Assembly: GCA_964016885.1 (NCBI GenBank) | Contig: OZ024744.1 | Coordinates: 132,866,001-132,930,000 of the forward strand | DNA from: Eledone cirrhosa | Taxonomy: Eukaryota | DNA length: 64,000 nucleotides | Direction: 5' to 3' | Shown here: piece after piece, positions 2,831 to 59,098 of the stretch | Layout of the letters: the number at the start of each line of letters is the position of its first letter | Numbering within the stretch: position 1 is the first letter of the stretch | The notes under the pieces: generated by a model | Told to the model about the DNA's origin: nothing | Databases searched by the model: none | The model's input: only the letters and a program-made list of their open reading frames with translations | Position numbers and translations under genes: made by a program

Positions 2831-2997
2831 TCAACCCCAACTTAACTTAACCCTAACTTAACTTAACCCCAACTTAACCGCAACTTAACTTAACCCCAAC
2901 TTAACTTACCCCCAACTTAACTTACCCCCCAACTTAACTGAACCCCAACTTAAGTTAAGCCTAACTTAACTTAACGCCAACTTAACTTAACCCCGAC

Positions 2998-3173
2998 TTA
3001 GGGCTTAAGTTAAGTTGGGGCTAAGTTAAGTTGGGGTTAAGTCAAGTTGGAAGTTGTGGTTGAGTGAAGTTGGGGTTAAGTTAAGTTGGGGTTGAGTGAA
3101 GTTGGGGTTAAGTTAAGTTGGGGTTGAGTTACGTTGGGGTTGAGTGAAGTTGGGGTTAAGTTAAGTTGGGGTT
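2998..3173 (-). repeat. Inverted satellite cassette copy 1 (176 bp)
   Basis: Strand switch at CCCCGAC|TTAGGGCTTAAGTTAAG, returning at GGGGTT|AACCCC. Carries the GAGTTACG allele. Confidence 0.97.
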
Positions 3174-3200
3174 AACCCCAACTTAACTTAACCCCAACTT
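3147..3200. other. Perfect 54-bp spacerless palindrome at the right junction of cassette 1 (equivalent at the other cassettes)
   Basis: AAGTTGGGGTTAAGTTAAGTTGGGGTT|AACCCCAACTTAACTTAACCCCAACTT: 27-bp arms centred on TT|AA (3173/3174). Confidence 0.93.
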
Positions 3201-6200
3201 AACTTAACCCCAACTTAACTTAACCCCAACATAACTTAACCCCAACTTAAATTAACCCCAACTTAACTTAAACTCAACTTAACTAACCAACTTAACTTAA
3301 CCCCAACTTAACTTAACCCCAACTTAACTTAACCCCAACTTAACTTAACCCCAACTTAACTTAACCCCAACTTAAATTAACCCCAACTTAACTTAACCCC
3401 AACTTAACTTAACCCCGACTTAACTTAACCCCAACTTAACTTAACCCCAACTTAACTTAGCCCCAACTTAACTTAGCCCCAACTTAACTTAGCCCCAACT
3501 TAACTTAACCCCAACTTAACATAACCGCACCTTAACTTAACCTCAACTTAACTTAACTGCAACTTAACTTAACCCCAACTTAACTTAACCCCAACTTAAC
3601 TCAACACCAACTTAACTCAACCCCAACTTAACTCAACCCCAATTTAACTCAACCCCAACTTAACTCAACCCCAACTTAACTTAACCCCAACTTAACTGAA
3701 CCCTAACTTAACTTAACCCCGACTTAAATTAAGCCCAACTTAACTTAACCCCAACTTAACTCAGCCCCAACTTAACTTAGCCCTAACTTAACTTAACCCC
3801 AACTTAACTTAACCCCAACTTAATTAACCCCAACTTAAATTAACCCCAACTTAACTTAACACCAACTTAACATAACCCCATCTTAAATAAACCCCAACTT
3901 AAATTAACCCCAACTTAACTTAACCCCAACTTAACTTAACCCCAACTTAACTCAGCCCCAACTTAACTTAGCCCCAACTTAACTTAACCCCAACTTAACT
4001 TAACCCCAACTTAACTTAACCCCAACTTAACTTATCCCCAACTTAACTTAACCCCAACTTAACTTAAACCCAACTTAACTTAACCCCAACTTAAACTATC
4101 CCCAACTTAACTTATCCCCAACTTAACTTAACCCCAACTTAACTTAACCCCAACTTAACTTAACCCCAACTTAATTTAACCCCAACTTAACTTAACCTCA
4201 ACTTAACTTAACCCCAACTTAACTTAACCCAAACTTAACTTAACCCCAACTTAAATTAGCCCCAACTTAACTTAACCCCAACTTAAATTAACCCCAACTT
4301 AACTTAACCCCAACTTAACTTAACCCCGACTTAAATTAACCCCAACTTAACTTAACCCCAACTTAACTTAACCCCAACTTAACCACAAATTAACTTAACC
4401 CCAACTTAACTTAACCCCAACTTAACTTAACCCCAACTTAACTTAACCCCAACTTAACTTAACCCCAACTTAACTTAAACCTAACTTAACTTAACCCCAA
4501 CTTAACCCCAACTTAACTTGACCCCAACTTAACTTAACCCCAACTTAACTCAACCCCAACTTAACTTAACCCCAACTTCACTCAGCCCCAACTTAACTCA
4601 GCCCCAACTTAACTTAGCCCCAACTTAACTTAACACCAACTTAACTTAACCCCAACTTAACTTAACCCCAACTTAACTTAACCCCAACTTAACTCAACCC
4701 CAACTTAACTCAGCCCCAACTTAACTCAGCCCCAACTTAACTTAGCCCCAACTTAACTTAACACCAACTTAACTTAACCCCAACTTAACTTAACCCCAAC
4801 TTAACTTAACCCCAACTTAACTTATCCCCAACTTAACTGAACCCCAACTTAACTTAACCCCAACTTAATATAACCCCAACTTAACTTAACCCCAACTTAA
4901 CTCAACCCCAACTTAAATTAACCCCAACTTAACTTAACCCCAACTTAACTTAACCCCAACTTAATTAACCCCAACTTAAATTAACCCCAACTTAACTTAA
5001 CACCAACTTAACGTAACCCCAACTTAACTTAACCCCAACTTAACTTAAACCTAACTTACCTTAACCCCAACTTAACCCCAACTTAACTTGACCCCAACTT
5101 AACTTAACCCCAACTTAACTCAACCCCAACTTAACTTAACCCCAACTTAACTCAGCCCCAACTTAACTCAGCCCCAACTTAACTTAGCCCCAACTTAACT
5201 TAACACCAACTTAACTTAACCCCAACTTAACTTAACCCCAACTTAACTTAACCCCAACTTAACTTATCCCCAACTTAACTGAACCCCAACTTAACTGAAC
5301 CCCAACTTAAATTAACCCCAACTTAACTTAACCCCAACTTAACTTAACCCCAACTTAACTCAACACCAACTTAACTCAACCCCAACTTAACTCAACCCCA
5401 ATTTAACTCAACCCCAACTTAACTCAACCCCAACTTAACTTAACCCCAACTTAACTGAACCCTAACTTAACTTAACCCCGACTTAACTTAACCCCGACTT
5501 AACTTAACCCCAACTTAACTTAACCCCAACTTAACTTAACCCCAACTTAACTTAACCCCAACTTAATTTAACCCCATCTTAACCCCAACTTAACTTAACC
5601 CCAACTTAACTGAACCCCAACTTAAATAAACCCCAACTTAACTTAACCCCAAGTTAACTTAACCCCAACTTAACTTAACCCCAACTTAACTCAGCCCCAA
5701 CTTAACTTAGCCCCAACTTAACTTAACCCCAACTTAACTTAACCCCAACTTAACTTAACCCCAACTTAACTTAACCCCAACTTAACTTAACCCCAACTTA
5801 ACTTAAACCCAACTTAACTTAACCCCAACTTAAATTATCCCCAACTTAACTTATCCCCAACTTAACTTAACCCCAACTTAACTTAACCCCAACTTAACTT
5901 AACCCCAACTTAACTTAACCTCAACTTAACTTAACCCCAACTTAACTTAACCCCATCTTAACTTAACCCCAACTTAACTTAACCCCAACTTAACTTAACC
6001 CCAACTTAAATTAACCCCAACTTAACTTAACCCCAACTTAACTTAACCCCGACTTAACTTAACCCCAACTTAACTTAACCCCAACTTAACTTAACCCCAA
6101 CTTAACCCCAACTTAACTTGACCCCAACTTAACTTAACCCCAACTTAACTCAACCCCAACTTAACTTAACCCCAACTTAACTCAGCCCCAACTTAACTCA

Positions 6201-7045
6201 GCCCCAACTTAACTTATCCCCAACTTAACTGAACCCCAACTTAACTTAACCCCAACTTAATATAACCCCAACTTAACTTAACCCCAACTTAACTCAACCC
6301 CAACTTAAATTAACCCCAACTTAACTTAACCCCAACTTAACTTAACCCCAACTTAATTAACCCCAACTTAAATTAACCCCAACTTAACTTAACACCAACT
6401 TAACGTAACCCCAACTTAATTTAACCCCAACTTAAATTAACCCCAACTTAACTTGCCCCCAACTTAACTTACCCCCAACGTAACTTAACCCCAACTTAAT
6501 TTAACCCCAACTTAACTTAACCCCAAATTAACTCAACCCCAACTTAACTCAACCCCAACTTAACTTAACCCCAACTTAACTTAACCCCAACTTAACTTAA
6601 CCACAAATTAACTTAGCCCCAACTTAAATTAACCCCAACTTAACTCAACCACAACTTAACTTAACCCCGACCTAACTTAACCCCAACTTAACTTAACCCC
6701 AACTTAACTTAACCCCAACTTCACTCAGCCCCAACTTAACTCAACCCCAACTTAACCCCAACTTAACTTAACCCCAACTTAAATTAACCACAAAGTTAAC
6801 TTAACCCCAATTTAAATTAACCCCAACTTAACTTAACCCCAACTTAACATAACCACCACTTAATTAACCCCAACTTAACTCAACCCCAACTTAACTTAAC
6901 CCTAACTTAACTTAACCCCAACTTAACCGCAACTTAACTTAACCCCAACTTAACTTACCCCCAACTTAACTTACCCCCAACTTAACTGAACCCCAACTTA
7001 AGTTAAGCCTAACTTAACTTAACGCCAACTTAACTTAACCCCGAC

Positions 7046-7221
7046 TTAGGGCTTAAGTTAAGTTGGGGCTAAGTTAAGTTGGGGTTAAGTCAAGTTGGAA
7101 GTTGTGGTTGAGTGAAGTTGGGGTTAAGTTAAGTTGGGGTTGAGTGAAGTTGGGGTTAAGTTAAGTTGGGGTTGAGTTAAGTTGGGGTTGAGTGAAGTTG
7201 GGGTTAAGTTAAGTTGGGGTT
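7046..7221 (-). repeat. Inverted satellite cassette copy 2 (176 bp)
   Basis: Same junctions as copy 1. Carries the GAGTTAAG allele. Confidence 0.97.
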
Positions 7222-10200
7222 AACCCCAACTTAACTTAACCCCAACTTAACTTAACCCCAACTTAACTTAACCCCAACTTAACTTAACCCCAACATAACT
7301 TAACCCCAACTTAAATTAACCCCAACTTAACTTAAACTCAACTTAACTAACCAACTTAACTTAACCCCAACTTAACTTAACCCCAACTTAACTTAACCCC
7401 AACTTAACTTAACCCCAACTTAACTTAACCCCAACTTAAATTAACCCCAACTTAACTTAACCCCAACTTAACTTAACCCCGACTTAACTTAACCCCAACT
7501 TAACTTAACCCCAACTTAACTTAGCCCCAACTTAACTTAGCCCCAACTTAACTTAGCCCCAACTTAACTTAACCCCAACTTAACATAACCGCACCTTAAC
7601 TTAACCTCAACTTAACATAACTGCAACTTAACTTAACCCCAACTTAACTTAACCCCAACTTAACTCAACACCAACTTAACTCAACCCCAACTTAACTCAA
7701 CCCCAATTTAACTCAACCCCAAGTTAACTCAACCCCAACTTAACTTAACCCCAACTTAACTGAACCCTAACTTAACTTAACCCCGACTTAAATTAAGCCC
7801 AACTTAACTTAACCCCAACTTAACTCAGCCCCAACTTAACTTAGCCCTAACTTAACTTAACCCCAACTTAACTTAACCCCAACTTAATTAACCCCAACTT
7901 AAATTAACCCCAACTTAACTTAATACCAACTTAACGTAACCCCATCTTAAATAAACCCCAACTTAAATTAACCCCAACTTAACTTAAACCCAACTTAACT
8001 TAACCCCAACTTAACTCAGCCCCAACTTAACTTAGCCCCAACTTAACTTAACCCCAACTTAACTTAACCCCAACTTAACTTAACCCCAACCTAACTTATC
8101 CCCAACTTAACTTAACCCCAACTTAACTTAAACCCAACTTAACTTAACCCCAACTTAAACTATCCCCAACTTAACTTATCCCCAACTTAACTTAACCCCA
8201 ACTTAACTTAACCCCAACTTAACTTAACCCCAACTTAATTTAACCCCAACTTAACTTAACCTCAACTTAACTTAACCCCAACTTAACTTAACCCCAACTT
8301 AACTTAACCCCAACTTAAATTAGCCCCAACTTAACTTAACCCCAACTTAAATTAACCCCAACTTAACTTAACCCCAACTTAACTTAACCCCGACTTAAAT
8401 TAACCCCAACTTAACTTAACCCCAACTTAACTTAACCCCAACTTAACTTAACCACAAATTAACTTAACCCCAACTTAACTTAACCCCAACTTAACTTAAC
8501 CCCAACTTAACTTAACCCCAACTTAACTTAAACCTAACTTAACTTAACCCCAACTTAACCCCAACTTAACTTGACCCCAACTTAACTTAACCCCAACTTA
8601 ACTCAACCCCAACTTAACTTAACCCCAACTTCACTCAGCCCCAACTTAACTCAGCCCCAACTTAACTTAGCCCCAACTTAACTTAACACCAACTTAACTT
8701 AACCCCAACTTAACCCCAACTTAACTTAACCCCAACTTAACTCAGCCCCAACTTAACTTAACCCCAACTTAACTCAGCCCCAACTTAACTCAGCCCCAAC
8801 TTAACTTAGCCCCAACTTAACTTAACACCAACTTAACTTAACCCCAACTTAACTTAACCCCAACTTAACTTAACCCCAACTTAACTTATCCCCAACTTAA
8901 CTGAACCCCAACTTAACTTAACCCCAACTTAATATAACCCCAACTTAACTTAACCCCAACTTAACTCAACCCCAACTTAAATTAACCCCAACTTAACTTA
9001 ACCCCAACTTAACTTAACCCCAACTTAATTAACCCCAACTTAAATTAACCCCAACTTAACTTAACACCAACTTAACGTAACCCCAACTTAACTTAACCCC
9101 AACTTAACTTAAACCTAACTTAACTTAACCCCAACTTAACCCCAACTTAACTTGACCCCAACTTAACTTAACCCCAACTTAACTCAACCCCAACTTAACT
9201 TAACCCCAACTTAACTCAGCCCCAACTTAACTCAGCCCCAACTTAACTTAGCCCCAACTTAACTTAACACCAACTTAACTTAACCCCAACTTAACTTAAC
9301 CCCAACTTAACTTAACCCCAACTTAACTTATCCCCAACTTAACTGAACCCCAACTTAACTGAACCCCAACTTAAATTAACCCCAACTTAACTTAACCCCA
9401 ACTTAACTTAACCCCAACTTAACTCAACACCAACTTAACTCAACCCCAACTTAACTCAACCCCAATTTAACTCAACCCCAACTTAACTCAACCCCAACTT
9501 AACTTAACCCCAAATTAACTGAACCCTAACTTAACTTAACCCCGACTTAACTTAACCCCGACTTAACTTAACCCCAACTTAACTTAACCCCAACTTAACT
9601 TAACCCCAACTTAACTTAACCCCAACTTAATTTAACCCCATCTTAACCCCAACTTAACTTAACCCCAACTTAACTGAACCCCAACTTAAATTAACCCCAA
9701 CTTAAATAAACCCCAACTTAACTTAACCCCAACTTAACTTAACCCCAACTTAACTTAACCCCAACTTAACTCAGCCCCAACTTAACTTAGCCCCAACTTA
9801 ACTTAACCCCAACTTAACTTAACCCCAACTTAACTTAACCCCAACTTAACTTAACCCCAACTTAACTTAACCCCAATTTAACTTAAACCCAACTTAACTT
9901 AACCCCAACTTAAATTATCCCCAACTTAACTTATCCCCAACTTAACTTAACCCCAACTTAACTTAACCCCAACTTAACTTAACCCCAACTTAATTTAACC
10001 CCAACTTAACTTAACCTCAACTTAACTTAACCCCAACTTAACTTAACCCCATCTTAACTTAACCCCAACTTAACTTAACCCCAACTTAACTTAACCCCAA
10101 CTTAAATTAACCCCAACTTAACTTAACCCCAACTTAACTTAACCCCGACTTAACTTAACCCCAACTTAACTTAACCCCAACTTAACTTAACCCCAACTTA

Positions 10201-11397
10201 ACCCCAACTTAACTTGACCCCAACTTAACTTAACCCCAACTTAACTTAAACTTAACTTAACTTAACCCCAACTTAACCCCAACTTAACTTGACCCCAACT
10301 TAACTTAACCCCAACTTAACTCAACCCCAACTTAACTTAACCCCAACTTAACTCAGCCCCAACTTAACTCAGCCCCAACTTAACTTAGCCCCAACTTAAC
10401 TTAACACCAACTTAACTTAACCCCAACTTAACTTAACCCCAACTTAACTTAACCCCAACTTAACTTATCCCCAACTTAACTGAACCCCAACTTAACTCAA
10501 CCCCAACTTAAATTAACCCCAACTTAACTTAACCCCAACTTAACTTAACCCCAACTTAATTAACCCCAACTTAAATTAACCCCAACTTAACTTAACACCA
10601 ACTTAACGTAACCCCAACTTAATTTAACCCCAACTTAAATTAACCCCAACTTAACTTGCCCCCAACTTAACTTACCCCCAACTTAACTTAACCCCAACTT
10701 AATTTAACCCCAACTTAATTTAACCCCAACTTAACTTAAACCCAACTTAACTTAACCCCAACTTAACTTAACCCCAAATTAACTCAACCCCAACTTAACT
10801 CAACCCCAACTTAACTTAACCACAAATTAAATTAGCCCCAACTTAAATTAACCCCAACTTAACTCAACCACAACTTAACTTAACCCCGACTTAACTTAAC
10901 CCCACCTTAACTTAACCTCAACTTAACTTAACTGCAACTTAACTTAACCCCAACTTAACTTAACCCCAACTTAACTCAACACCAACTTAACTCAACCCCA
11001 ACTTAACTCAACGCCAATTTAACTCAACCCCAACTTAACTCAACCCCAACTTAACTTAACCCCGACTTAAATTAACCCCGACTTAACTTAACCCCAACTT
11101 AACTCAACCCCAACTTAACTTAACCCCAACTTAAATTAACCACAAAGTTAACTTAACCCCAATTTAAATTAACCCCAACTTAACTTAACCCCAACTTAAC
11201 ATAACCACCACTTAATTAACCCCAACTTAACTCAACCCCAACTTAACTTAACCCTAACTTAACTTAACCCCAACTTAACCGCAACTTAACTTAACCCCAA
11301 CTTAACTTACCCCCAACTTAACTTACCCCCAACTTAACTGAACCCCAACTTAAGTTAAGCCTAACTTAACTTAACGCCAACTTAACTTAACCCCGAC

Positions 11398-11573
11398 TTA
11401 GGGCTTAAGTTAAGTTGGGGCTAAGTTAAGTTGGGGTTAAGTCAAGTTGGAAGTTGTGGTTGAGTGAAGTTGGGGTTAAGTTAAGTTGGGGTTGAGTGAA
11501 GTTGGGGTTAAGTTAAGTTGGGGTTGAGTTAAGTTGGGGTTGAGTGAAGTTGGGGTTAAGTTAAGTTGGGGTT
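11398..11573 (-). repeat. Inverted satellite cassette copy 3 (176 bp)
   Basis: Same junctions. GAGTTAAG allele, appears identical to copy 2. Confidence 0.97.
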
Positions 11574-14500
11574 AACCCCAACTTAACTTAACCCCAACTT
11601 AACTTAACCCCAACTTAACTTAACCCCAACTTAACTTAACCCCAACATAACTTAACCCCAACTTAAATTAACCCCAACTTAACTTAAACTCAACTTAACT
11701 AACCAACTTAACTTAACCCCAACTTAACTTAACCCCAACTTAACTTAACCCCAACTTAACTTAACCCCAACTTAACTTAACCCCAACTTAAATTAACCCC
11801 AACTTAACTTAACCCCAACTTAACTTTACCCCGACTTAACTTAACCCCAACTTAACTTAACCCCAACTTAACTTAGCCCCAACTTAACTTAGCCCCAACT
11901 TAAGTTAGCCCCAACTTAACTTAACCCCAACTTAACATAACCGCACCTTAACTTAACCTCAACTTAACATAACTGCAACTTAACTTAACCCCAACTTAAC
12001 TTAACCCCAACTTAACTCAACACCAACTTAACTCAACCCCAACTTAACTCAACCCCAATTTAACTCAACCCCAAGTTAACTCAACCCCAACTTAACTTAA
12101 CCCCAACTTAACTGAACCCTAACTTAACTTAACCCCGACTTAAATTAAGCCCAACTTAACTTAACCCCAACTTAACTCAGCCCCAACTTAACTTAGCCCT
12201 AACTTAACTTAACCCCAACTTAACTTAACCCCAACTTAATTAACCCCAACTTAAATTAACCCCAACTTAACTTAATACCAACTTAACGTAACCCCATCTT
12301 AAATAAACCCCAACTTAAATTAACCCCAACTTAACTTAAACCCAACTTAACTTAACCCCAACTTAACTCAGCCCCAACTTAACTTAGCCCCAACTTAACT
12401 TAACCCCAACTTAACTTAACCCCAACTTAACTTAACCCCAACCTAACTTATCCCCAACTTAACTTAACCCCAACTTAACTTAAACCCAACTTAACTTAAC
12501 CCCAACTTAAACTATCCCCAACTTAACTTATCCCCAACTTAACTTAACCCCAACTTAACTTAACCCCAACTTAACTTAACCCCAACTTAATTTAACCCCA
12601 ACTTAACTTAACCTCAACTTAACTTAACCCCAACTTAACTTAACCCCAACTTAACTTAACCCCAACTTAAATTAGCCCCAACTTAACTTAACCCCAACTT
12701 AAATTAACCCCAACTTAACTTAACCCCAACTTAACTTAACCCCGACTTAAATTAACCCCAACTTAACTTAACCCCAACTTAACTTAACCCCAACTTAACT
12801 TAACCACAAATTAACTTAACCCCAACTTAACTTAACCCCAACTTAACTTAACCCCAACTTAACTTAACCCCAACTTAACTTAAACCTAACTTAACTTAAC
12901 CCCAACTTAACCCCAACTTAACTTGACCCCAACTTAACTTAACCCCAACTTAACTCAACCCCAACTTAACTTAACCCCAACTTCACTCAGCCCCAACTTA
13001 ACTCAGCCCCAACTTAACTTAGCCCCAACTTAACTTAACACCAACTTAACTTAACCCCAACTTAACCCCAACTTAACTTAACCCCAACTTAACTCAACCC
13101 CAACTTAACTTAACCCCAACTTAACTCAGCCCCAACTTAACTCAGCCCCAACTTAACTTAGCCCCAACTTAACTTAACACCAACTTAACTTAACCCCAAC
13201 TTAACTTATCCCCAACTTAACTGAACCCCAACTTAACTTAACCCCAACTTAATATAACCCCAACTTAACTTAACCCCAACTTAACTCAACCCCAACTTAA
13301 ATTAACCCCAACTTAACTTAACCCCAACTTAACTTAACCCCAACTTAATTAACCCCAACTTAAATTAACCCCAACTTAACTTAACACCAACTTAACGTAA
13401 CCCCAACTTAACTTAACCCCAACTTAACTTAAACCTAACTTAACTTAACCCCAACTTAACCCCAACTTAACTTGACCCCAACTTAACTTAACCCCAACTT
13501 AACTCAACCCCAACTTAACTTAACCCCAACTTAACTCAGCCCCAACTTAACTCAGCCCCAACTTAACTTAGCCCCAACTTAACTTAACACCAACTTAACT
13601 TAACCCCAACTTAACTTAACCCCAACTTAACTTAACCCCAACTTAACTTATCCCCAACTTAACTGAACCCCAACTTAACTGAACCCCAACTTAAATTAAC
13701 CCCAACTTAACTTAACCCCAACTTAACTTAACCCCAACTTAACTCAACACCAACTTAACTCAACCCCAACTTAACTCAACCCCAATTTAACTCAACCCCA
13801 ACTTAACTCAACCCCAACTTAACTTAACCCCAACTTAACTGAACCCTAACTTAACTTAACCCCGACTTAACTTAACCCCGACTTAACTTAACCCCAACTT
13901 AACTTAACCCCAACTTAACTTAACCCCAACTTAACTTAACCCCAACTTAATTTAACCCCATCTTAACCCCAACTTAACTTAACCCCAACTTAACTGAACC
14001 CCAACTTAAATTAACCCCAACTTAAATAAACCCCAACTTAACTTAACCCCAACTTAACTTAACCCCAACTTAACTTAACCCCAACTTAACTCAGCCCCAA
14101 CTTAACTTAGCCCCAACTTAACTTAACCCCAACTTAACTTAACCCCAACTTAACTTAACCCCAACTTAACTTAACCCCAACTTAACTTAACCCCAATTTA
14201 ACTTAAACCCAACTTAACTTAACCCCAACTTAAATTATCCCCAACTTAACTTATCCCCAACTTAACTTAACCCCAACTTAACTTAACCCCAACTTAACTT
14301 AACCCCAACTTAATTTAACCCCAACTTAACTTAACCTCAACTTAACTTAACCCCAACTTAACTTAACCCCATCTTAACTTAACCCCAACTTAACTTAACC
14401 CCAACTTAACTTAACCCCAACTTAAATTAACCCCAACTTAACTTAACCCCAACTTAACTTAACCCCGACTTAACTTAACCCCAACTTAACTTAACCCCAA

Positions 14501-43083: not shown

Positions 43084-43259
43084 TTAGGGCTTAAGTTAAG
43101 TTGGGGCTAAGTTAAGTTGGGGTTAAGTCAAGTTGGAAGTTGTGGTTGAGTGAAGTTGGGGTTAAGTTAAGTTGGGGTTGAGTGAAGTTGGGGTTAAGTT
43201 AAGTTGGGGTTGAGTTACGTTGGGGTTGAGTGAAGTTGGGGTTAAGTTAAGTTGGGGTT
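43084..43259 (-). repeat. Inverted satellite cassette copy 7 (176 bp)
   Basis: Same junctions. GAGTTACG allele. The upstream C6 tract (TTACCCCCC) is shared with copy 1. Confidence 0.97.
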
Positions 43260-46200: not shown

Positions 46201-49200
46201 AACTTAACCCCAACTTAACTTAACCCCAACTTAATTTAACCCCAACTTAACTTAACCTCAACTTAACTTAACCCCAACTTAACTTAACCCCATCTTAACT
46301 TAACCCCAACTTAACTTAACCCCAACTTAACTTAACCCCAACTTAAATTAACCCCAACTTAACTTAACCCCAACTTAACTTAACCCCGACTTAACTTAAC
46401 CCCAACTTAACTTAACCCCAACTTAACTTAACCCCAACTTAACTTAACCACAAATTAACTTAACCCCAACTTAACTTAACCCCAACTTAACTTAACCCCA
46501 ACTTAACTTAACCCCAACTTAACTTAACCCCAACTTAACTTAACCCTAACTTAACTTAACCCCAACTTAACCCCGACTTAACTTGACCCCAACTTAACTT
46601 AACCCCAACTTAACTCAACCCCAACTTAACTTAACCCCAACTTAACTCAGCCCCAACTTAACTCAGCCCCAACTTAACTTAGCCACAACTTAACTTAACA
46701 CCAACTTAACTTAACCCCAACTTAACTTAACCCCAACTTAACTCAATGCCAACTTAAATTAACCCCATCTTAACTTAACCCCAACTTAACTTAACCCCAA
46801 CTTAATTAACCCCAACTTAAATTAACCCCAACTTAACTTAACACCAGCTTAACGTAACCCCAACTTAAATAAACCCCAACTTAAATTAACCCCAACTTAA
46901 CTTAACCCCAACTTAACTTAACCCCAACTTAACTCAGCCCCAACTTAACTTAGCCTCAACTTAACTTAACCCCAACTTAACTTAACCCCAACTTAACTTA
47001 TCCCCAACTTAACTTAACCCCAACTTAACTTAAACCCAACTTAACTTAACCCCAACTTAAATTATCCCCAACTTAACTTATCCCCAACTTAACTTAACCC
47101 CAACTTAACTTAACCCCAACTTAACTTAACCCCAACTTAATTTACCCCCAACTTAACTTAACCCCAACTTAACTTAACCACAAATTAACTTAACCCCAAC
47201 TTAACTTAACCCCAACTTAACTTAACCCCAACTTAACTTAACCCCAACTTAACTTAACCCCAACTTAACTTAAACCTAACTTAACTTAACCCCAACTTAA
47301 CCCCAACTTAACTTGACCCCAACTTAACTTAACCCCAACTTAACTCAACCCCAACTTAAATTAACCCCAACTTAACTCAGCCCCAACTTAACTCAGCCCC
47401 AACTTAACTTAGCCCCAACTTAACTTAACCCCAACTTAACCTATCCCCAACTTAACTGAACCCCAACTTAACTTAACCCCAACTTAATATAACCCCAACT
47501 TAACTTAACCCCAACTTAACTCAACCCCAACTTAAATTAACCCCAACTTAACTTAACCCCAACTTAACTTAACCCCAACTTAATTAACCCCAACTTAAAT
47601 TAACCCCAACTTAACTTAACACCAACTTAACGTAACCCCAACTTAATTTAACCCCAACTTAAATTAACCCCAACTTAACTTGCCCCCAACTTAACTTACC
47701 CCCAACTTAACTTAACCCCAACTTAATTTAACCCCAACTTAATTTAAGCCCAAATTAACTTAAACCCAACTTAAATTAACCCCAACTTAACTTAACCCCA
47801 AATTAACTCAACCCCAACTTAACTCAACCCCAACTTAACTTAACCCCAAATTAACTTAACCACAAATTAACTTAGCCCCAACTTAAATTAACCCCAACTT
47901 AACTCAACCACAACTTAACTTAACCCCGACTTAACTTAACCCCACCTTAACTTAACCTCAACTTAACTTAACTGCAACTTAACTTAACCCCAACTTAACT
48001 TAACCCCAACTTAACTCAACACCAACTTAACTCAACCCCAACTTAACTCAACCCCAATTTAACTCAACCCCAACTTAACTCAACCCCAACTTAACTTAAC
48101 CCCAACTTAACTTAACCCCGACTTAACTTAACCCCGACTTAACTTAACCCCAACTTAACTTAACCCCAACTTAACTTAACCCCAACTTAACTTAACCCCA
48201 ACTTAATTTAACCCCATCTTAACCCCAACTTAACTTAACCCCAACTTAACTGAACCCCAACTTAACTTAACCCCAACTTATATAAACCCCAACTTAACTT
48301 AACCCCAACTTAACTTAACCCCAACTTAACTTAACCCCAACTTAACTCAGCCCCAACTTAACTTAGCCCCAACTTAACTTAACCCCAACTTAACTTAACC
48401 CCAACTTAACTTAACCCCAACTTAATTTAACCCCAACTTAACTTAACCCCAACTTAACTTAAACCCAACTTAACTTAACCCCAACTTAAATTATCCCCAA
48501 CTTAACTTATCCCCAACTTAACTTAACCCCAACTTAACTTAACCCCAACTTAACTCAACACCAACTTAACTCAACCGCAACTTAACTCAACGCCAATTTA
48601 ACTCAACCCCAACTTAACTCAACCCCAACTTAACTTAACCCCAACTTAACTGAACCCTAACTTAACTTAACCCCGACTTAAATTAACCCCGACTTAACTT
48701 AACCCCAACTTAACTTAACCCCAACTTAACTTAACCCCAACTTAACTTAACCCCAACTTAACTTAACCCCAACTTAAATTAACCCCAACTTAACTTAAAC
48801 TCAACTTAACTAACCAACTTAACTTAACCCCAACTTAACTTGACCCCAACTTAACTTAACCCCAACTTAACTTAAACCCAACTTAACTTAACCCCAACTT
48901 AACTTAGCCCCAACTTAACTTAACCCCAACTTAACTTAACCCCAAATTAAATTAACCTCAACTTAACTTAACCCCAACTTAACTTAACCCCGACTTAACT
49001 TAACCCCAACTTAACTTAACCCCAACTTAACTTAGCCCCAACTTAACTTAGCCCCAACTTAACTTAGCCCCAACTTAACTTAACCCCAACTTAACTTAAC
49101 CGCACCTTAACTTAACCTCAACTTAACTTAACTGCAACTTAACTTAACCCCAACTTAACTTAACCCCAACTTAACTCAAAACCAACTTAACTCAACCCCA

Positions 49201-52200
49201 ACTTAACTCAACCCCAATTTAACTCAACCCCAAGTTAACTCAACCCCAACTTAACTTAACCCCAACTTAACTGAACCCTAACTTAACTTAACCCCGACTT
49301 AACTTAACCCCGACTTAACTTAACCCCAACTTAACTTAACCCCAACTTAACTTAACCCCAACTTAACTTAACCCCAACTTAATTTAACCCCATCTTAACC
49401 CCAACTTATCTTAACCCCAACTTAACTGAACCCCAACTTAATTTAACCCCAACTTAAATAAACCCCAACTTAACTTAACCCCAACTTAACTTAACCCCAG
49501 CTTAACTTAACCCCAACTTAACTCAGCCCCAACTTAACTTAGCCCCAACTTAACTTAACCCCAACTTAACTTAACCCCAACTTAACTTAACCCCAACTTA
49601 ACTTAACCCCAACTTAACTTAACCCCAACTTAACTTAAACCCAACTTAACTTAACCCCAACTTAAATTATCCCCAACTTAACTTATCCTCAACTTAACTT
49701 AACCCCAACTTAACTTAACCCCAACTTAACTTAACCCCAACTTAATTTAACCCCAACTTAACTTAACCTCAACTTAACTTAACCCCAACTTAACTTAACC
49801 CCATCTTAACTTAACCCCAACTTAACTTAACCCCAACTTAACTTAACCCCAACTTAAATTAACCCCAACTTAACTTAACCCCAACTTAACTCAGCCCCAA
49901 CTTAACTTAGCCTGAACTTAACTTAACCCCAACTTAACTTAACCCCAACTTAACTTATCCCCAACTTAACTTAACCCCAACTTAACTTAAACCCAACTTA
50001 ACTTAACCCCAACTTAAATTATCCCCAACTTAACTTATCCCCAACTTAACTTAACCCCAACTTAACTTAACCCCAACTTAACTTAACCCCAACTTAATTT
50101 AACCCCAACTTAACTTAACCCCAACTTAACTTAACCACAAATTAACTTAACCCCAACTTAACTTAACCCCAACTTAACTTAACCCCAACTTAACTTAACC
50201 CCAACTTAACTTAACCCCAACTTAACTTAAACCTAACTTAACTTAACCCCAACTTAACCCCAACTTAACTTGACCCCAACTTAACTTAACCCCAACTTAA
50301 CTCAACCCCAACTTAAATTAACCCCAACTTAACTCAGCCCCAACTTAACTCAGCCCCAACTTAACTTAGCCCCAACTTAACTTAACCCCAACTTAACCTA
50401 TCCCCAACTTAACTGAACCCCAACTTAACTTAACCCCAACTTAATATAACCCCAACTTAACTTAACCCCAACTTAACTCAACCCCAACTTAAATTAACCC
50501 CAACTTAACTTAACCCCAACTTAACTTAACCCCAACTTAATTAACCCCAACTTAAATTAACCCCAACTTAACTTAACACCAACTTAACGTAACCCCAACT
50601 TAATTTAACCCCAACTTAAATTAACCCCAACTTAACTTGCCCCCAACTTAACTTACCCCCAACTTAACTTAAACCCAACTTAAATTAACCCCAACTTAAC
50701 TTAACCCCAAATTAACTCAACCCCAACTTAACTCAACCCCAACTTAACTTAACCCCAAATTAACTTAACCACAAATTAACTTAGCCCCAACTTAAATTAA
50801 CCCCAACTTAACTCAACCACAACTTAACTTAACCCCGACTTAACTTAACCCCACCTTAACTTAACCTCAACTTAACTTAACTGCAACTTAACTTAACCCC
50901 AACTTAACTTAACCCCAACTTAACTCAACACCAACTTAACTCAACCCCAACTTAACTCAACCCCAATTTAACTCAACCCCAACTTAACTCAACCCCAACT
51001 TAACTTAACCCCAACTTAACTGAACCCTAACTTAACTTAACCCCGACTTAACTTAACCCCGACTTAACTTAACCCCAACTTAACTTAACCCCAACTTAAC
51101 TTAACCCCAACTTAACTTAACCCCAACTTAATTTAACCCCATCTTAACCCCAACTTAACTTAACCCCAACTTAACTGAACCCCAACTTAACTTAACCCCA
51201 ACTTATATAAACCCCAACTTAACTTAACCCCAACTTAACTTAACCCCAACTTAACTTAACCCCAACTTAACTCAGCCCCAACTTAACTTAGCCCCAACTT
51301 AACTTAACCCCAACTTAACTTAACCCCAACTTAACTTAACCCCAACTTAATTTAACCCCAACTTAACTTAACCCCAACTTAACTTAAACCCAACTTAACT
51401 TAACCCCAACTTAAATTATCCCCAACTTAACTTATCCCCAACTTAACTTAACCCCAACTTAACTTAACCCCAACTTAACTCAACACCAACTTAACTCAAC
51501 CGCAACTTAACTCAACGCCAATTTAACTCAACCCCAACTTAACTCAACCCCAACTTAACTTAACCCCAACTTAACTGAACCCTAACTTAACTTAACCCCG
51601 ACTTAAATTAACCCCGACTTAACTTAACCCCAACTTAACTTAACCCCAACTTAACTTAACCCCAACTTAACTTAACCCCAACTTAACTTAACCCCAACTT
51701 AAATTAACCCCAACTTAACTTAAACTCAACTTAACTAACCAACTTAACTTAACCCCAACTTAACTTGACCCCAACTTAACTTAACCCCAACTTAACTTAA
51801 ACCCAACTTAACTTAACCCCAACTTAACTTAGCCCCAACTTAACTTAACCCCAACTTAACTTAACCCCAAATTAAATTAACCTCAACTTAACTTAACCCC
51901 AACTTAACTTAACCCCGACTTAACTTAACCCCAACTTAACTTAACCCCAACTTAACTTAGCCCCAACTTAAATTAGCCCCAACTTAACTTAGCCCCAACT
52001 TAACTTAACCCCAACTTAACTTAACCGCACCTTAACTTAACCTCAACTTAACTTAACTGCAACTTAACTTAACCCCAACTTAACTTAACCCCAACTTAAC
52101 TCAAAACCAACTTAACTCAACCCCAACTTAACTCAACCCCAATTTAACTCAACCCCAACTTAACTCAACCCCAACTTAACTTAACCCCAACTTAACTGAA

Positions 52201-55200
52201 CCCTAACTTAACTTAACCCCGACTTAACTTAACCCCGACTTAACTTAACCCCAACTTAACTTAACCCCAACTTAACTTAACCCCAACTTAACTTAACCCC
52301 AACTTAATTTAACCCCATCTTAACCCCAACTTATCTTAACCCCAACTTAACTGAACCCCAACTTAATTTAACCCCAACTTAAATAAACCCCAACTTAACT
52401 TAACCCCAACTTAACTTAACCCCAGCTTAACTTAACCCCAACTTAACTCAGCCCCAACTTAACTTAGCCCCAACTTAACTTAACCCCAACTTAACTTAAC
52501 CCCAACTTAACTTAACCCCAACTTAACTTAACCCCAACTTAACTTAAACCCAACTTAACTTAACCCCAACTTAAATTATCCCCAACTTAACTTATCCTCA
52601 ACTTAACTTAACCCCAACTTAACTTAACCCCAACTTAACTTAACCCCAACTTAATTTAACCCCAACTTAACTTAACCTCAACTTAACTTAACCACAACTT
52701 AACTTAACCCCATCTTAACTTAACCCCAACTTAACTTAACCCCAACTTAACTTAACCCCAACTTAAATTAACCCCAACTTAACTTAACCCCAACTTAACT
52801 TAACCCCGACTTAACTTAACCCCAACTTAACTTAACCCCAACTTAACTTAACCCCAACTTAACTTAACCACAAATTAACTTAACCCCAACTTAACTTAAC
52901 CCCAACTTAACTTAACCCCAACTTAACTTAACCCCAACTTAACTTAACCCCAACTTAACTTAACCCTAACTTAACTTAACCCCAACTTAACCCCGACTTA
53001 ACTTGACCCCAACTTAACTTAACCCCAACTTAACTCAACCCCAACTTAACTTAACCCCAACTTAACTCAGCCCCAACTTAACTCAGCCCCAACTTAACTT
53101 AGCCACAACTTAACTTAACACCAACTTAACTTAACCCCAACTTAACTTAACCCCAACTTAACTCAATCCCAACTTAAATTAACCCCATCTTAACTTAACC
53201 CCAACTTAACTTAACCCCAACTTAATTAACCCCAACTTAAATTAACCCCAACTTAACTTAACACCAACTTAACGTAACCCCAACTTAAATAAACCCCAAC
53301 TTAAATTAACCCCAACTTAACTTAACCCCAACTTAACTTAACCCCAACTTAACTCAGCCCCAACTTAACTTAGCCTCAACTTAACTTAACCCCAACTTAA
53401 CTTAACCCCAACTTAACTTATCCCCAACTTAACTTAACCCCAACTTAACTTAAACCCAACTTAACTTAACCCCAACTTAAATTATCCCCAACTTAACTTA
53501 TCCCCAACTTAACGTAACCCCAACTTAACTTAACCCCAACTTAACTTAACCCCAACTTAATTTAACCCCAACTTAACTTAACCCCAACTTAACTTAACCA
53601 CAAATTAACTTAACCCCAACTTAACTTAACCCCAACTTAACTTAAACCCAACTTAACTTAACCCCAACTTAACTTAACCCCAACTTAACTTAAACCTAAC
53701 TTAACTTAACCCCAACTTAACCCCAACTTAACTTGACCCCAACTTAACTTAACCCCAACTTAACTCAACCCCAACTTAAATTAACCCCAACTTAACTCAG
53801 CCCCAACTTAACTCAGCCCCAACTTAACTCAGCCCCAACTTAACTTAGCCCCAACTTAACTTAACCCCAACTTAACCTATCCCCAACTTAACTGAACCCC
53901 AACTTAACTTAACCCCAACTTAATATAACCCCAACTTAACTTAACGCCGACTTAACTCAACCCCAACTTAAATTAACCCCAACTTAACTTAACCCCAACT
54001 TAACTTAACCCCAACTTAATTAACCCCAACTTAAATTAACCCCAACTTAACTTAACACCAACTTAACGTAACCCCAACTTAATTTAACCCCAACTTAACT
54101 TAACCCCAAATTAACTCAACCCCAACTTAACTCAACCCCAACTTAACTTAACCCCAAATTAACTTAACCACAAATTAACTTAGCCCCAACTTAAATTAAC
54201 CCCAACTTAACTCAACCACAACTTAACTTAACCCCGACTTAACTTAACCCCACCTTAACTTAACCTCAACTTAACTTAACTGCAACTTAACTTAACCCCA
54301 ACTTAACTTAACCCCAACTTAACTCAACACCAACTTAACTCAACCCCAACTTAACTCAACCCCAATTTAACTCAACCCCAACTTAACTCAACCCCAACTT
54401 AACTTAACCCCAACTTAACTGAACCCTAACTTAACTTAACCCCGACTTAACTTAACCCCGACTTAACTTAACCCCAACTTAACTTAACCCCAACTTAACT
54501 TAACCCCAACTTAACTTAACCCCAACTTAATTTAACCCCATCTTAACCCCAACTTAACTTAACCCCAACTTAACTGAACCCCAACTTAACTTAACCCCAA
54601 CTTATATAAACCCCAACTTAACTTAACCCCAACTTAACTTAACCCCAACTTAACTTAACCCCAACTTAACTCAGCCCCAACTTAACTTAGCCCCAACTTA
54701 ACTTAACCCCAACTTAACTTAACCCCAACTTAACTTAACCCCAACTTAATTTAACCCCAACTTAACTTAACCCCAACTTAACTTAAACCCAACTTAACTT
54801 AACCCCAACTTAAATTATCCCCAACTTAACTTATCCCCAACTTAACTTAACCCCAACTTAACTTAACCCCAACTTAACTTAACCCCAACTTAATTTAACC
54901 CCAACTTAACTTAACCTCAACTTAACTTAACCCCAACTTAACTTAACCCCATCTTAACTTAACCCCAACTTAACTTAACCCCAACTTAACTTAACCCCAA
55001 CTTAAATTAACCCCAACTTAACTTAACCCCAACTTAACTTAACCCCGACTTAACTTAACCCCAACTTAACTTAACCCCAACTTAACTTAACCCCAACTTA
55101 ACTTAACCACAAATTAACTTAACCCCAACTTAACTTAACCCCAACTTAACTTAACCCCAACGTAACCCCAACTTAACTTGACCCCAACTTAACTTAACCC

Positions 55201-56201
55201 CAACTTAACTCAACCCCAACTTAACTTAATCCCAACTTAACTCAGCCCCAACTTAACTCAGCCCCAACTTAACTTAGCCCCAACTTAACTCAACACCAAC
55301 TTAACTTAACCCCACCTTAACTTAACCCCAACTTAACTTAACCCCAACTTAACTTATCCCCAACTTAACTGAACCCCAACTTAACTTAACCCCAACTTAA
55401 TATAACCCCAAATTAACTTAACCCCAACTTAACTCAACCCCAACTTAAATTAACCCCAACTTAACTTAACCCCAACTTAACTTAACCCCAACTTAATTAA
55501 CCCCAACTTAAATTAACCCCAACTTAACTTAACACCAACTTAACGTAACCCCAACTTAATTTAACCCCAACTTAAATTAACCCCAACTTAACTTGCCCCC
55601 AAATTAACTTACCCCCAACTTAATTTAACCCCAACTTAATTTAACCCCAACTTAACTTAAACCCAACTTAACTTAACCCCAACTTAACTTAACCCCAAAT
55701 TAACTCAACCCCAACTTAACTCAACCCCAACTTAACTTAACCCCAACTTAACTTAACCCCAACTTAACTTAACCACAAATTAACTTAGCCCCAACTTAAA
55801 TTAACCCCAACTTAAATCAACCACAACTTAACTTAACCCCGACTAAACTTAACCCCAACTTAACTTAACCCCAACTTCACTCAACCCCAACTTAACTCAA
55901 CCCCAACTTAACCCCAACTTAACTTAACCCCAACTTAACTTAACCACAAAGTTAACTTAACCCCAATTTAAATTAACCCCAACTTAACTTAACCCCAACT
56001 TAACATAACCACCACTTAATTAACCCCAACTTAACTCAACCCCAACTTAACTTAACCCTAACTTAACTTAACCCCAACTTAACCGCAACTTAACTTAACC
56101 CCACCTTAACTTACCCCCAACTTAACTTACCCCCAACTTAACTGAACCCCAACTTAAGTTAAGCCTAACTTAACTTAACGCCAACTTAACTTAACCCCGA
56201 C

Positions 56202-56377
56202 TTAGGGCTTCAGTTAAGTTGGGGCTAAGTTAAGTTGGGGTTAAGTCAAGTTGGAAGTTGGGGTTGAGTGAAGTTGGGGTTAAGTTAAGTTGGGGTTGAG
56301 TGAAGTTGGGGTTAAGTTAAGTTGGGGTTGAGTTACGTTGGGGTTGAGTGAAGTTGGGGTTAAGTTAAGTTCGGGTT
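56202..56377 (-). repeat. Inverted satellite cassette copy 8 (176 bp)
   Basis: TTAGGGCTTCAG start, GGAAGTTGGGG instead of GGAAGTTGTGG, GAGTTACG allele, private TTCGGG at the right junction. Confidence 0.97.
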
Positions 56378-58922
56378 AACCCCAACTTAACTTAACCCCA
56401 ACTTAACTTAACCCCAACTTAACTTAACCCCAACTTAACTTAACCCCAACATAACTTAACCCCAACTTAAATTAACCCCAACTTAACTTAAACTCAACTT
56501 AACTAACCAACTTAACTTAACCCCAACTTAACTTAACCCCAACTTAACTTAACCCCAACTTAACTTAAACCCAACTTAACTTAACCCCAACTTAACTTAA
56601 CCCCAACTTAACTTAACCCCGACTTAACTTAACCCCAACTTAAATTAACCCCAACTTAACTTAACCCCAACTTAACTTAACCCCGACTTAACTTAACCCC
56701 AACTTAACTTAACCCCAACTTAACTTAGCCCCAACTTAACTTAACCCCAACTTAATTTAACCCCAACTTAATTTAAGCCCAAATTAACTTAAACCCAACT
56801 TAAATTAACCCCAACTTAACTTAACCCCAAATTAACTCAACCCCAACTTAACTCAACCCCAACTTAACTTAACCCCAAATTAACTTAACCACAAATTAAC
56901 TTAGCCCCAACTTAAATTAACCCCAACTTAACTCAACCACAACTTAACTTAACCCCGACTTAACTTAACCCCACCTTAACTTAACCTCAACTTAACTTAA
57001 CTGCAACTTAACTTAACCCCAACTTAACTTAACCCCAACTTAACTCAACACCAACTTAACTCAACCCCAACTTAACTCAACCCCAATTTAACTCAACCCC
57101 AACTTAACTCAACCCCAACTTAACTTAACCCCAACTTAACTGAACCCTAACTTAACTTAACCCCGACTTAACTTAACCCCGACTTAACTTAACCCCAACT
57201 TAACTTAACCCCAACTTAACTTAACCCCAACTTAACTTAACCCCAACTTAATTTAACCCCATCTTAACCCCAACTTAACTTAACCCCAACTTAACTGAAC
57301 CCCAACTTAACTTAACCCCAACTTATATAAACCCCAACTTAACTTAACCCCAACTTAACTTAACCCCAACTTAACTTAACCCCAACTTAACTCAGCCCCA
57401 ACTTAACTTAGCCCCAACTTAACTTAACCCCAACTTAACTTAACCCCAACTTAACTTAACCCCAACTTAATTTAACCCCAACTTAACTTAACCCCAACTT
57501 AACTTAAACCCAACTTAACTTAACCCCAACTTAAATTATCCCCAACTTAACTTATCCCCAACTTAACTTAACCCCAACTTAACTTAACCCCAACTTAACT
57601 TAACCCCAACTTAATTTAACCCCAACTTAACTTAACCTCAACTTAACTTAACCCCAACTTAACTTAACCCCATCTTAACTTAACCCCAACTTAACTTAAC
57701 CCCAACTTAACTTAACCCCAACTTAAATTAACCCCAACTTAACTTAACCCCAACTTAACTTAACCCCGACTTAACTTAACCCCAACTTAACTTAACCCCA
57801 ACTTAACTTAACCCCAACTTAACTTAACCACAAATTAACTTAACCCCAACTTAACTTAACCCCAACTTAACTTAACCCCAACGTAACCCCAACTTAACTT
57901 GACCCCAACTTAACTTAACCCCAACTTAACTCAACCCCAACTTAACTTAATCCCAACTTAACTCAGCCCCAACTTAACTCAGCCCCAACTTAACTTAGCC
58001 CCAACTTAACTCAACACCAACTTAACTTAACCCCACCTTAACTTAACCCCAACTTAACTTAACCCCAACTTAACTTATCCCCAACTTAACTGAACCCCAA
58101 CTTAACTTAACCCCAACTTAATATAACCCCAAATTAACTTAACCCCAACTTAACTCAACCCCAACTTAAAATAACCCCAACTTAACTTAACCCCAACTTA
58201 ACTTAACCCCAACTTAATTAACCCCAACTTAAATTAACCCCAACTTAACTTAACACCAACTTAACGTAACCCCAACTTAATTTAACCCCAACTTAAATTA
58301 ACCCCAACTTAACTTGCCCCCAAATTAACTTACCCCCAACTTAATTTAACCCCAACTTAATTTAACCCCAACTTAACTTAAACCCAACTTAACTTAACCC
58401 CAACTTAACTTAACCCCAAATTAACTCAACCCCAACTTAACTCAACCCCAACTTAACTTAACCCCAACTTAACTTAACCCCAACTTAACTTAACCACAAA
58501 TTAACTTAGCCCCAACTTAAATTAACCCCAACTTAAATCAACCACAACTTAACTTAACCCCGACTAAACTTAACCCCAACTTAACTTAACCCCAACTTCA
58601 CTCAACCCCAACTTAACTCAACCCCAACTTAACCCCAACTTAACTTAACCCCAACTTAACTTAACCACAAAGTTAACTTAACCCCAATTTAAATTAACCC
58701 CAACTTAACTTAACCCCAACTTAACATAACCACCACTTAATTAACCCCAACTGAACTCAACCCCAACTTAACTTAACCCTAACTTAACTTAACCCCAACT
58801 TAACCGCAACTTAACTTAACCCCACCTTAACTTACCCCCAACTTAACTTACCCCCAACTTAACTGAACCCCAACTTAAGTTAAGCTTAACTTAACTTAAC
58901 GCCAACTTAACTTAACCCCGAC

Positions 58923-59098
58923 TTAGGGCTTCAGTTAAGTTGGGGCTAAGTTAAGTTGGGGTTAAGTCAAGTTGGAAGTTGGGGTTGAGTGAAGTTGGGG
59001 TTAAGTTAAGTTGGGGTTGAGTGAAGTTGGGGTTAAGTTAAGTTGGGGTTGAGTTACGTTGGGGTTGAGTGAAGTTGGGGTTAAGTTAAGTTGGGGTT
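58923..59098 (-). repeat. Inverted satellite cassette copy 9 (176 bp)
   Basis: Shares the TTAGGGCTTCAG and GGAAGTTGGGG alleles with copy 8. Confidence 0.97.

What the first reader, a model, noticed from the sequence alone, without database searches (positions are those of the whole stretch)
2998..59098. Nine copies of one 176-bp inversion embedded in an otherwise unidirectional satellite
Seen: strand switches begin at 2998, 7046, 11398, 19747, 23500, 30106, 43084, 56202 and 58923. All are 176 bp with the same two junctions and the same internal TTGGAAGTTG break. Spacings are 4048, 4352, 8349, 3753, 6606, 12978, 13118 and 2721 bp. Inference: one inversion arose once and was amplified with the array. 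Its length stays constant while the flanks often gain and lose monomers. That could be because an inverted tract cannot misalign with its neighbours, or because it is kept as a functional landmark, such as a structure-forming or protein-loading site.
Basis: partly seen in the sequence, partly recalled or inferred. Interest (0 to 1): 0.72.

Follow-up and report, generated by a model that had tools for sequence, protein, structure and literature searches.

The report
Old satellite micro-inversion copied as passenger
Nine identical-length back-to-front patches in a 16-letter repeat array are young copies of a patch found hundreds of times along this chromosome; it likely arose once and was likely multiplied as a passenger, its length has changed many times, and one copy likely served as the U-turn that planted a larger inversion nearby.

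Summary
Observation confirmed: nine 176-bp inverted tracts at the stated places, 0-5 differences apart. They belong to a family of at least 773 junction copies in an ~8.3-Mb array of a 16-bp satellite on C28; 491 of 496 strand switches sampled use the same two junctions. One origin plus amplification is well supported. Fixed length is not: 272 complete tracts fall into 32 lengths, 89-425 bp, and 176 is 201 minus an exact 25-bp deletion whose scar is the 'TTGGAAGTTG break'. Within the scarred lineage the tract is about 3-5 times more length-stable than its flanks (borderline, P about 0.03-0.05). It shows no sequence constraint, no regular spacing and no over-amplification, and 3.2 Mb of the array lack it. 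It can pair with the main array: a 2.2-kb inverted insertion 6.8 kb upstream copies the window's first cassette and flank. Closest known: conserved, amplified inversion sites in Tribolium satellites. The scan reported this family before on other stretches of this array. Raw reads and chromatin untested.

The parts
1..64000 (+). 16-bp satellite array, consensus CCCCAACTTAACTTAA (11-bp and 15-bp variants), organised as a patchwork of re-duplicated 0.3-2 kb blocks; part of an ~8.3-Mb array on G000:C28 (about 127.0-135.3 Mb)
   Evidence: extent; size estimate
2998..3173 (-). Inverted tract, copy 1 (176 bp: ten 16-mers, a 7-bp broken unit and the junction ends); also the likely template of the 2.2-kb inverted insertion upstream of the window
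7046..7221 (-). Inverted tract, copy 2
11398..11573 (-). Inverted tract, copy 3 (identical to copy 2)
19747..19922 (-). Inverted tract, copy 4 (identical to copies 1 and 7)
23500..23675 (-). Inverted tract, copy 5
30106..30281 (-). Inverted tract, copy 6; its left flank lacks 48 bp
43084..43259 (-). Inverted tract, copy 7
56202..56377 (-). Inverted tract, copy 8 (sub-lineage shared with copy 9)
58923..59098 (-). Inverted tract, copy 9
2991..3004 (.). Junction A (CCCCGAC|TTAGGGC), an imperfect fold-back with a 7-base loop; older lineages read CCCCGACTTTGGGC, CTCCGACTTTGGGG and CCCCGAATTTGGGG. The same junction starts all nine copies
3147..3200 (.). Junction B: spacer-less palindrome centred on the monomer's own TTAA, 27-bp perfect arms in the modal haplotype (77 of 103 young copies)
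3047..3056 (-). TTGGAAGTTG 'break': scar of an out-of-register 25-bp deletion that turned a 201-bp tract into the 176-bp tract
2360..3810 (+). Approximate shared block (about 640 bp each side of the tract) in which the cassette travels; the same variant-monomer string flanks most young copies
945..3145 (+). Best donor (of 82 candidates) for the 2.2-kb inverted insertion at C28:132,857,052-132,859,236, 6.8-8.9 kb before the window: 4 mismatches and one 16-bp indel in 2,185 bp

Best explanation
The nine tracts are near-identical members of a family of at least 773 short inversions in one satellite array; the family likely descends from a single old template-switch inversion and was likely multiplied as a neutral passenger of ordinary block duplications. 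Step 1 (inferred): a replication or repair template switch at the monomer's self-complementary TTAA (junction B) and at a near-palindromic CCCC-AATT/ACTT-GGGG site (junction A) laid down a few hundred bases of satellite back to front. Step 2 (pattern shown, process inferred): the ~1-2 kb block holding it was copied by unequal exchange through successive waves of expansion. Step 3 (shown): the tract changed length repeatedly, giving 32 classes from 89 to 425 bp; the 176-bp form is a 201-bp form minus 25 bp, and it swept with the youngest layers. Step 4 (lower rate borderline, cause inferred): small length changes inside the tract are rarer than in the flanks because, for a local slip, it can pair only with its own ~11 variant-rich, out-of-register monomers. 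Step 5 (two cases shown, mechanism inferred): when the tract does pair with main-array monomers it acts as an inverted repeat and the product is a larger inversion, with one end inside a cassette and the other at a new TTAA-centred junction.
For: Single origin: 250 A-type and 241 B-type of 496 switches in 1.15 Mb; 3 lie at gaps or insertions and 2 are new; a shared flank string precedes junction A in all lineages printed except a few rearranged copies. Passenger: in 560 kb of the young block junction A has 62 copies, among the lowest of 17 markers (58-358), with spacing CV 0.77 inside their range of 0.59-1.14; spacing runs 1.0-31.6 kb; the junction pattern has no hit between 124.69 and 130.25 Mb although 127.0-130.0 Mb is this satellite. 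No constraint: among 45 copies intact on both sides, 12 derived alleles in 174 bp of tract against 13 in 338 bp of flank (P = 0.14, trend towards more in the tract), and 4 in the 24 bp around junction B. Length history; exact 25-bp deletion with no other difference. The one deletion in the youngest lineage removes one copy of the tract's perfect 32-bp internal repeat. Seeding: the 2.2-kb insertion matches window 945-3145 (score 2162 against 1925 for the next of 82), leaves the cassette about 145-150 bp in, and has ~90 bp of recipient sequence repeated on both sides; the ~560-kb block ends 44 bp into a cassette.
Against: The stability of the 176-bp form is real and not fully explained by youth: 151 of 153 complete scarred tracts are 176 bp across 4.7 Mb while their flanks have 6 and 8 length classes. 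The family has survived several successive sweeps and still carries a 54-bp spacer-less palindrome in most young copies, which a purely neutral model does not predict. Junction B is the simplest possible switch in this monomer, so some B junctions could be independent. Event counts are minimum counts from length classes, not from a tree. The ancestral pre-inversion sequence was not found, so step 1 is not shown. The left end of the 560-kb block is a 200-N scaffold gap, so its pairing with the new junction at 131,964,578 is inferred.
Confidence: 0.78

Rival explanations
1. The tract is kept by selection as a structure-forming or protein-loading landmark (a cruciform at the spacer-less junction B) in a centromere-like sub-domain of the array, as proposed for Tribolium inversion sites.
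For: The 401-nt region folds as single-stranded DNA at -148 kcal/mol (z = -20.6), whereas a 60-nt piece of plain array does not fold at all; 27-bp perfect arms in 77 of 103 young copies; in the main array the hits are confined to about 130.2-135.0 Mb and persist through several lineages; same proposal in PMC13081366 and PMC12581902 (passages).
Against: Any inversion in a tandem array makes such a hairpin, so the fold is not evidence of function. Substitutions are not reduced in the tract or at the junctions; length varies five-fold; the B arm has a median of only 14 bp in the oldest lineages; spacing is irregular and copy number ordinary; the pure satellite seems confined to one chromosome.
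Confidence: 0.1
2. The palindrome is a selfish amplifier: it breaks or stalls forks and so drives duplication of the block that carries it.
For: The 116 bp next to junction B are the most rearranged interval tested (8 length classes, 16 of about 150 copies with the landmark lost); both larger inversions involve a cassette.
Against: The cassette is among the rarest markers of the young layer (62 against up to 358); other runs of consensus monomers away from junction B are as unstable (13 classes in the next 253 bp).
Confidence: 0.07
3. The same inversion recurs independently because the monomer offers palindromic TTAA sites.
For: Junction B and both new junctions are centred on TTAA.
Against: Junction A carries private substitutions in nested states (TTTGGGG, TTTGGGC, TTAGGGC) with shared flank and tract markers; only 2 new junctions in 1.15 Mb.
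Confidence: 0.03
4. Assembly or sequencing artefact (fold-back chimeras).
Against: Hundreds of copies with nested substitutions and 32 lengths, on both strands and in contigs separated by gaps; artefacts would not share one junction pair with a lineage structure.
Confidence: 0.02

Closest known systems
Conserved, amplified inversion sites and macro-dyad symmetries of Tribolium satellites (T. madens TmSat1/TmSat2, PMC13081366; T. freemani TfSat01/TfSat03, PMC12581902; passages found by term search were read)
   Same: Satellite monomers change direction at a few stereotyped sites present in hundreds to thousands of near-identical copies; no foreign DNA at the switch; monomer number between fixed points varies; hairpin function proposed but untested.
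   Different: Here the inverted part is a short out-and-back island (89-425 bp) in kilobases of one-way array, not a multi-kb near-symmetric dyad; both junctions go back to one event; it is found on one chromosome only, not on all; a 16-bp monomer in a 3-Gb genome with TTAGGG telomeres. PMC13081366 states that satellite macro-dyads were documented only in Tribolium.
DUP-TRP/INV-DUP rearrangements by template switching at inverted repeats (PMC11293582; abstract and Introduction read)
   Same: First junction hidden in inverted homology, second at microhomology, inverted copy flanked by duplicated recipient sequence: the layout of the 2.2-kb insertion templated by window copy 1.
   Different: The inverted repeat is a 176-bp island against satellite monomers, not kilobase low-copy repeats; no genes are involved.
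Microinversions flanked by inverted repeats (PMC8755829; abstract only)
   Same: Short inversion attributed to template switching or microhomology-mediated repair at short inverted repeats.
   Different: Those are 17-33 nt single-copy events; this one is longer and was amplified to hundreds of copies.
Layered, higher-order expansion of satellite arrays (recalled, e.g. alpha satellite; no paper read on this)
   Same: Variant monomers and rare scars hitchhike on duplicated blocks; young homogeneous layers sit among older diverged ones.
   Different: No fixed higher-order period here; block lengths are irregular.

Membership tests
Tribolium-type macro-dyad satellite organisation | Orientation switches at a few conserved, highly repeated inversion sites | tested here: met
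   491 of 496 switches in two junction classes; 773 exact-pattern hits
Tribolium-type macro-dyad satellite organisation | Inverted subarrays of several kb, tending to symmetry | tested here: not met
   272 complete tracts are 89-425 bp within one-way stretches of 0.6-31 kb
Tribolium-type macro-dyad satellite organisation | Present in the putative (peri)centromeres of all or most chromosomes | tested here: not met
   The junction listing begins at C28, with no hit on C1-C27; 673 later hits are not listed. Trimer count equals about 8.35 Mb, the size of the C28 array; the C2 hits are a composite repeat in the 10 kb read
Tribolium-type macro-dyad satellite organisation | A second, minor satellite intermingled with the major one | tested here: inconclusive
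   An AT-rich repeat replaces the B end of some old tracts at 132.5-132.79 Mb but none occurs in the young block
Functional centromeric satellite | CENP-A/CENH3 occupancy | not testable with these tools
   No chromatin data available
Template-switch inverted insertion (DUP-TRP/INV-DUP-like): the 2.2-kb derivative | One junction within inverted homology, the other at microhomology | tested here: met
   Exit from the cassette 145-150 bp in; other end at a TTAA-centred junction
Template-switch inverted insertion (DUP-TRP/INV-DUP-like): the 2.2-kb derivative | Donor retained nearby and recipient sequence duplicated on both sides | tested here: met
   Donor window 945-3145 intact; about 90 bp repeated either side of the insertion
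Template-switch inverted insertion: the primary short tract | Identifiable donor or pre-inversion allele | tested here: inconclusive
   Old tracts hold marker strings also seen in main-array orientation, but no pre-inversion allele was found
TTAA-specific transposon or MITE | Terminal inverted repeats, own sequence, independent insertion sites | tested here: not met
   The tract is wholly satellite monomers and most copies share the same flanks
Telomeric repeat | Forms the chromosome ends | tested here: not met
   C10 begins with (CCCTAA)n; the array stops about 1.2 Mb before the end of C28
Regular higher-order repeat | Fixed period | tested here: not met
   Spacing of 63 copies 1.0-31.6 kb, CV 0.77

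The most novel reading that the evidence does not exclude
A single micro-inversion has been kept by selection through several complete turnovers of a chromosome-specific satellite because its spacer-less 54-bp palindrome extrudes a cruciform that marks the active centromere core (the ~4.8-Mb cassette-bearing part of the array): an independent, non-beetle case of structure-defined centromeric DNA with a built-in control, the 3.2 Mb of the same satellite that lacks the cassette.
Probability: 0.1. Interest if true: 0.72.

Novelty: new member of a known kind. Interest (0 to 1): 0.36.

Why it matters
It is a clean natural marker for how satellite arrays turn over: one tagged event can be followed through hundreds of copies, several layers and 32 lengths. 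It shows that highly conserved, highly repeated inversion sites, read in Tribolium as signs of structural function, can arise with no detectable sequence constraint, which is a useful null model for that hypothesis. It also gives a base-level example of a small inversion acting as the inverted repeat that seeds a larger one inside a satellite. It does not reveal a new kind of element.

Tried and rejected
Telomere idea (G-rich strand points to the chromosome end over most of the array): rejected, see membership tests. Prediction that the flipped 560-kb block would begin at a junction B (reciprocal exchange): not confirmed; its left end is a scaffold gap. A third apparent split cassette at 131.988 Mb is an old tract cut by a gap and was dropped. 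Thirteen mirror-image hits of the near-palindromic junction CCCCGAATTTGGGG were removed before counting tracts; 11 of 283 junctions had no complete tract under 600 bp (2 true splits, the rest at stretch ends, a gap or AT-rich insertions). Landmark intervals c-T and T-o were ambiguous and not used. Phase preservation: CCCC-to-CCCC across the tract is 185 bp, not a multiple of 16, so 176 = 11 x 16 is a counting coincidence (read). Paper searches; 'macro-dyad' gave 5 papers (4 listed), two on Tribolium read in passages, two other insect papers seen only as listings; the search with 'octopus' gave nothing on this satellite in its listing. No supplements were read; those of the Tribolium papers hold the inversion-site alignments and may bear on the comparison.
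Full report
OBSERVATION. The window is one tandem array of a 16-bp unit, CCCCAACTTAACTTAA, which decomposes into 3,966 units, 3,740 of them 16 bp. Each is 176 bp; the nine form 6 haplotypes with 0-5 differences. Read on the other strand the island is ordinary satellite: variant monomers, one 7-bp broken unit, and an end GCCCTAA. Junction A reads CCCCGAC|TTAGGGC; junction B is a spacer-less palindrome on the monomer's own TTAA, with 27-bp perfect arms in the modal haplotype.

SETTING. The window is G000:C28:132,866,001-132,930,000 in a 3.0-Gb genome. The satellite was found in every stretch sampled from 127.0 to 135.2 Mb and not at 126.5 or 135.35 Mb. The genome holds 29,906 perfect trimers, which at the sampled density equals 8.35 Mb, so nearly all of it is this one array. 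The first hits listed are on C2 at 209.2 Mb, where the 10 kb read is a composite ~520-bp unit; C1 has none. Most of the array has the G-rich strand on top; the window lies in a ~560-kb block turned the other way.

THE FAMILY. The exact junction 20-mer has 107 hits (60 plus, 47 minus; control 0). A degenerate version has 773; the listing starts on C28, with 13 hits at 124.6-124.7 Mb and then none until 130.25 Mb; 673 hits are not listed. In 1.15 Mb of fetched array there are 496 strand switches: 250 of type A, 241 of type B, 3 at gaps or insertions and 2 new. The lineages share the monomer string in front of junction A and marker monomers next to junction B, and junction A shows nested states TTTGGGG, TTTGGGC, TTAGGGC. 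One origin is therefore well supported for A and likely for B, which is a generic sequence.

LENGTH IS NOT FIXED. Of 283 A junctions in 1.33 Mb fetched, 272 have a complete tract; they fall into 32 length classes from 89 to 425 bp, 151 of them 176 bp. Longer classes lie in more diverged parts of the array (131.2-132.8 and 124.6 Mb). The commonest 176-bp haplotype of the TTTGGGC lineage (29 copies) differs from a 201-bp tract only by a 25-bp deletion. The order long-to-short is inferred from divergence and nesting, not shown by an outgroup.

BUT THE YOUNG FORM IS RATHER STABLE. Of 153 complete scarred tracts, 151 are 176 bp, one 160 and one 144. In the youngest (TTAGGG) lineage, with 104 copies scored, the modal length is kept by 101 tracts, 83 of 104 left flanks (193 bp), 72 of 102 right flanks (116 bp), and 44 and 57 of 102 in the next two intervals. 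Copies are related, so I counted length classes as minimum events: 1 in 176 bp against 22 in 758 bp of flank (5.1 expected; Poisson P = 0.037, binomial 0.052), but against the left flank alone P = 0.46. In the wider scarred family (152 copies with flanks) the left and right intervals have 6 and 8 classes against 3 for the tract (P about 0.03 by hand). So there is a 3-5-fold deficit of local indels with borderline support. Stability roughly follows monomer heterogeneity: the longest exact match at a 16-bp shift is 15 bp in the tract, 23 bp in the left flank and 46-59 bp in the two least stable intervals, though also 23 bp in the third, fairly unstable one. The single deletion in the youngest lineage removes one unit of the tract's 32-bp internal repeat. 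This fits a mechanical cause: a short, variant-rich, out-of-register tract that can slip only on itself (inference).

NO SIGN OF SELECTION. Among 45 copies intact on both sides (19 distinct), the tract has 12 derived alleles in 174 bp and the flanks 13 in 338 bp (P = 0.14); the 24 bp around junction B have 4. In 560 kb of the young block junction A has 62 copies, among the lowest of 17 markers (58-358), and its spacing CV (0.77) is within their range (0.59-1.14). Spacing runs from 1.0 to 31.6 kb there, about 1-2 kb at 130.25 Mb, and 3.2 Mb of the array has no hit. The strong fold (-148 kcal/mol, z = -20.6) follows from any inversion in a tandem array. Against this reading stand the persistence of the family through several sweeps and the intact 27-bp arms in 77 of 103 young copies; in the oldest lineages the median arm is 14 bp.

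THE TRACT CAN PAIR WITH THE MAIN ARRAY. Two of 105 young junctions have no junction B. At C28:132,857,052-132,859,236, 6.8-8.9 kb before the window, a 2,185-bp inverted piece matches window 945-3145, the first cassette and its left flank, with 4 mismatches and one 16-bp indel, best of 82 candidates by 2162 against 1925. It leaves the cassette 145-150 bp in and runs on into main-array monomers; its other end is a new TTAA-centred junction; about 90 bp of the recipient site appear on both sides. At 133,355,371 the flipped block ends 44 bp into a cassette that is fused to an older array layer; the only other new junction, at 131,964,578, opens a flipped piece of the same young layer, but two 200-N gaps lie between, so their pairing is inferred. 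This is the layout described for template switching at inverted repeats followed by microhomology repair (PMC11293582, abstract and Introduction). Exchange inside the tract thus happens, but yields inversions rather than small length changes.

WHAT IS KNOWN. Tribolium madens and T. freemani satellites change direction at a few conserved sites in thousands of copies, with varying monomer numbers between fixed points; the authors propose hairpin function, note that preservation could also reflect the way the repeats spread, and say that satellite macro-dyads were documented only in that genus (PMC13081366, PMC12581902; passages). This case works like those inversion sites but fails two defining features: the inverted part is short and asymmetric, and it is on one chromosome. 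Six paper searches listed nothing on this satellite; only titles and abstract starts were seen for papers other than the four fetched. The scan's earlier notes describe the same family on other stretches of this array and reach a similar reading; I had found the family, the length classes and both split cassettes before opening them, and they are not independent evidence. One of them gave the lead to PMC11293582.

VERDICT. Real feature; one origin and passive amplification likely (0.78); constant length true only for a young deletion-derived lineage, with a modest, probably mechanical deficit of indels; landmark function unsupported (0.10) but untested on chromatin. New member of a known kind; interest 0.36.

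Noticed in passing
L051 3543-3742 (C28:132,793,543) and C28:131,987,343: Two 200-N scaffold gaps bound a 0.8-Mb stretch of old, diverged array that sits between two flipped pieces of the young layer; it may be misplaced in the scaffold. After the second gap come an unrelated TTTTAACCTAACCTAA-like repeat and about 1.2 kb of degraded C/A sequence that looks like a poor contig end.
   Followed up: partly
L016, L015, L017, L056 (C28:132.03, 132.50, 132.70, 132.78 Mb): An AT-rich (20% GC) repeat of about 28-30 bp, 0.8-3.1 kb long, interrupts the old array; in several copies it abuts a truncated inverted tract and replaces junction B.
   Followed up: partly
L140 (C2:209,200,001-209,210,000): The same 16-mer forms part of a composite ~520-bp tandem unit (about 280 bp of other sequence plus 8-17 monomers) at the midpoint of the 416-Mb C2; a related non-satellite sequence seems to occur at C28:125.5 Mb. 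Possible source of the C28 satellite, or a fusion or centromere site.
   Followed up: no
L071-L083 (C28:124.60-124.69 Mb); L184, L185, L034: A small outlying island of the old array in flipped orientation; another satellite lies at 124.0-124.3 Mb and, reversed, at 135.6 Mb, which suggests a large inverted duplication around the array.
   Followed up: no
C28:133.146-133.308 Mb, 134.476 Mb, 135.001 Mb: Several 176-bp tracts have one monomer replaced by its neighbour's variant (two changes at once, length kept), which looks like gene conversion within or between cassettes.
   Followed up: no
L062, L063 (C28:133.244-133.263 Mb): Cassettes alternate at about 1.0 and 4 kb: a local ~5-kb unit with two cassettes repeated three times, a nascent regular higher-order repeat.
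   Followed up: no
C28 as a whole: At 136.5 Mb it is listed after the 22-Mb C27, as a named sex chromosome often is in curated assemblies (recalled convention, not tested).
   Followed up: no
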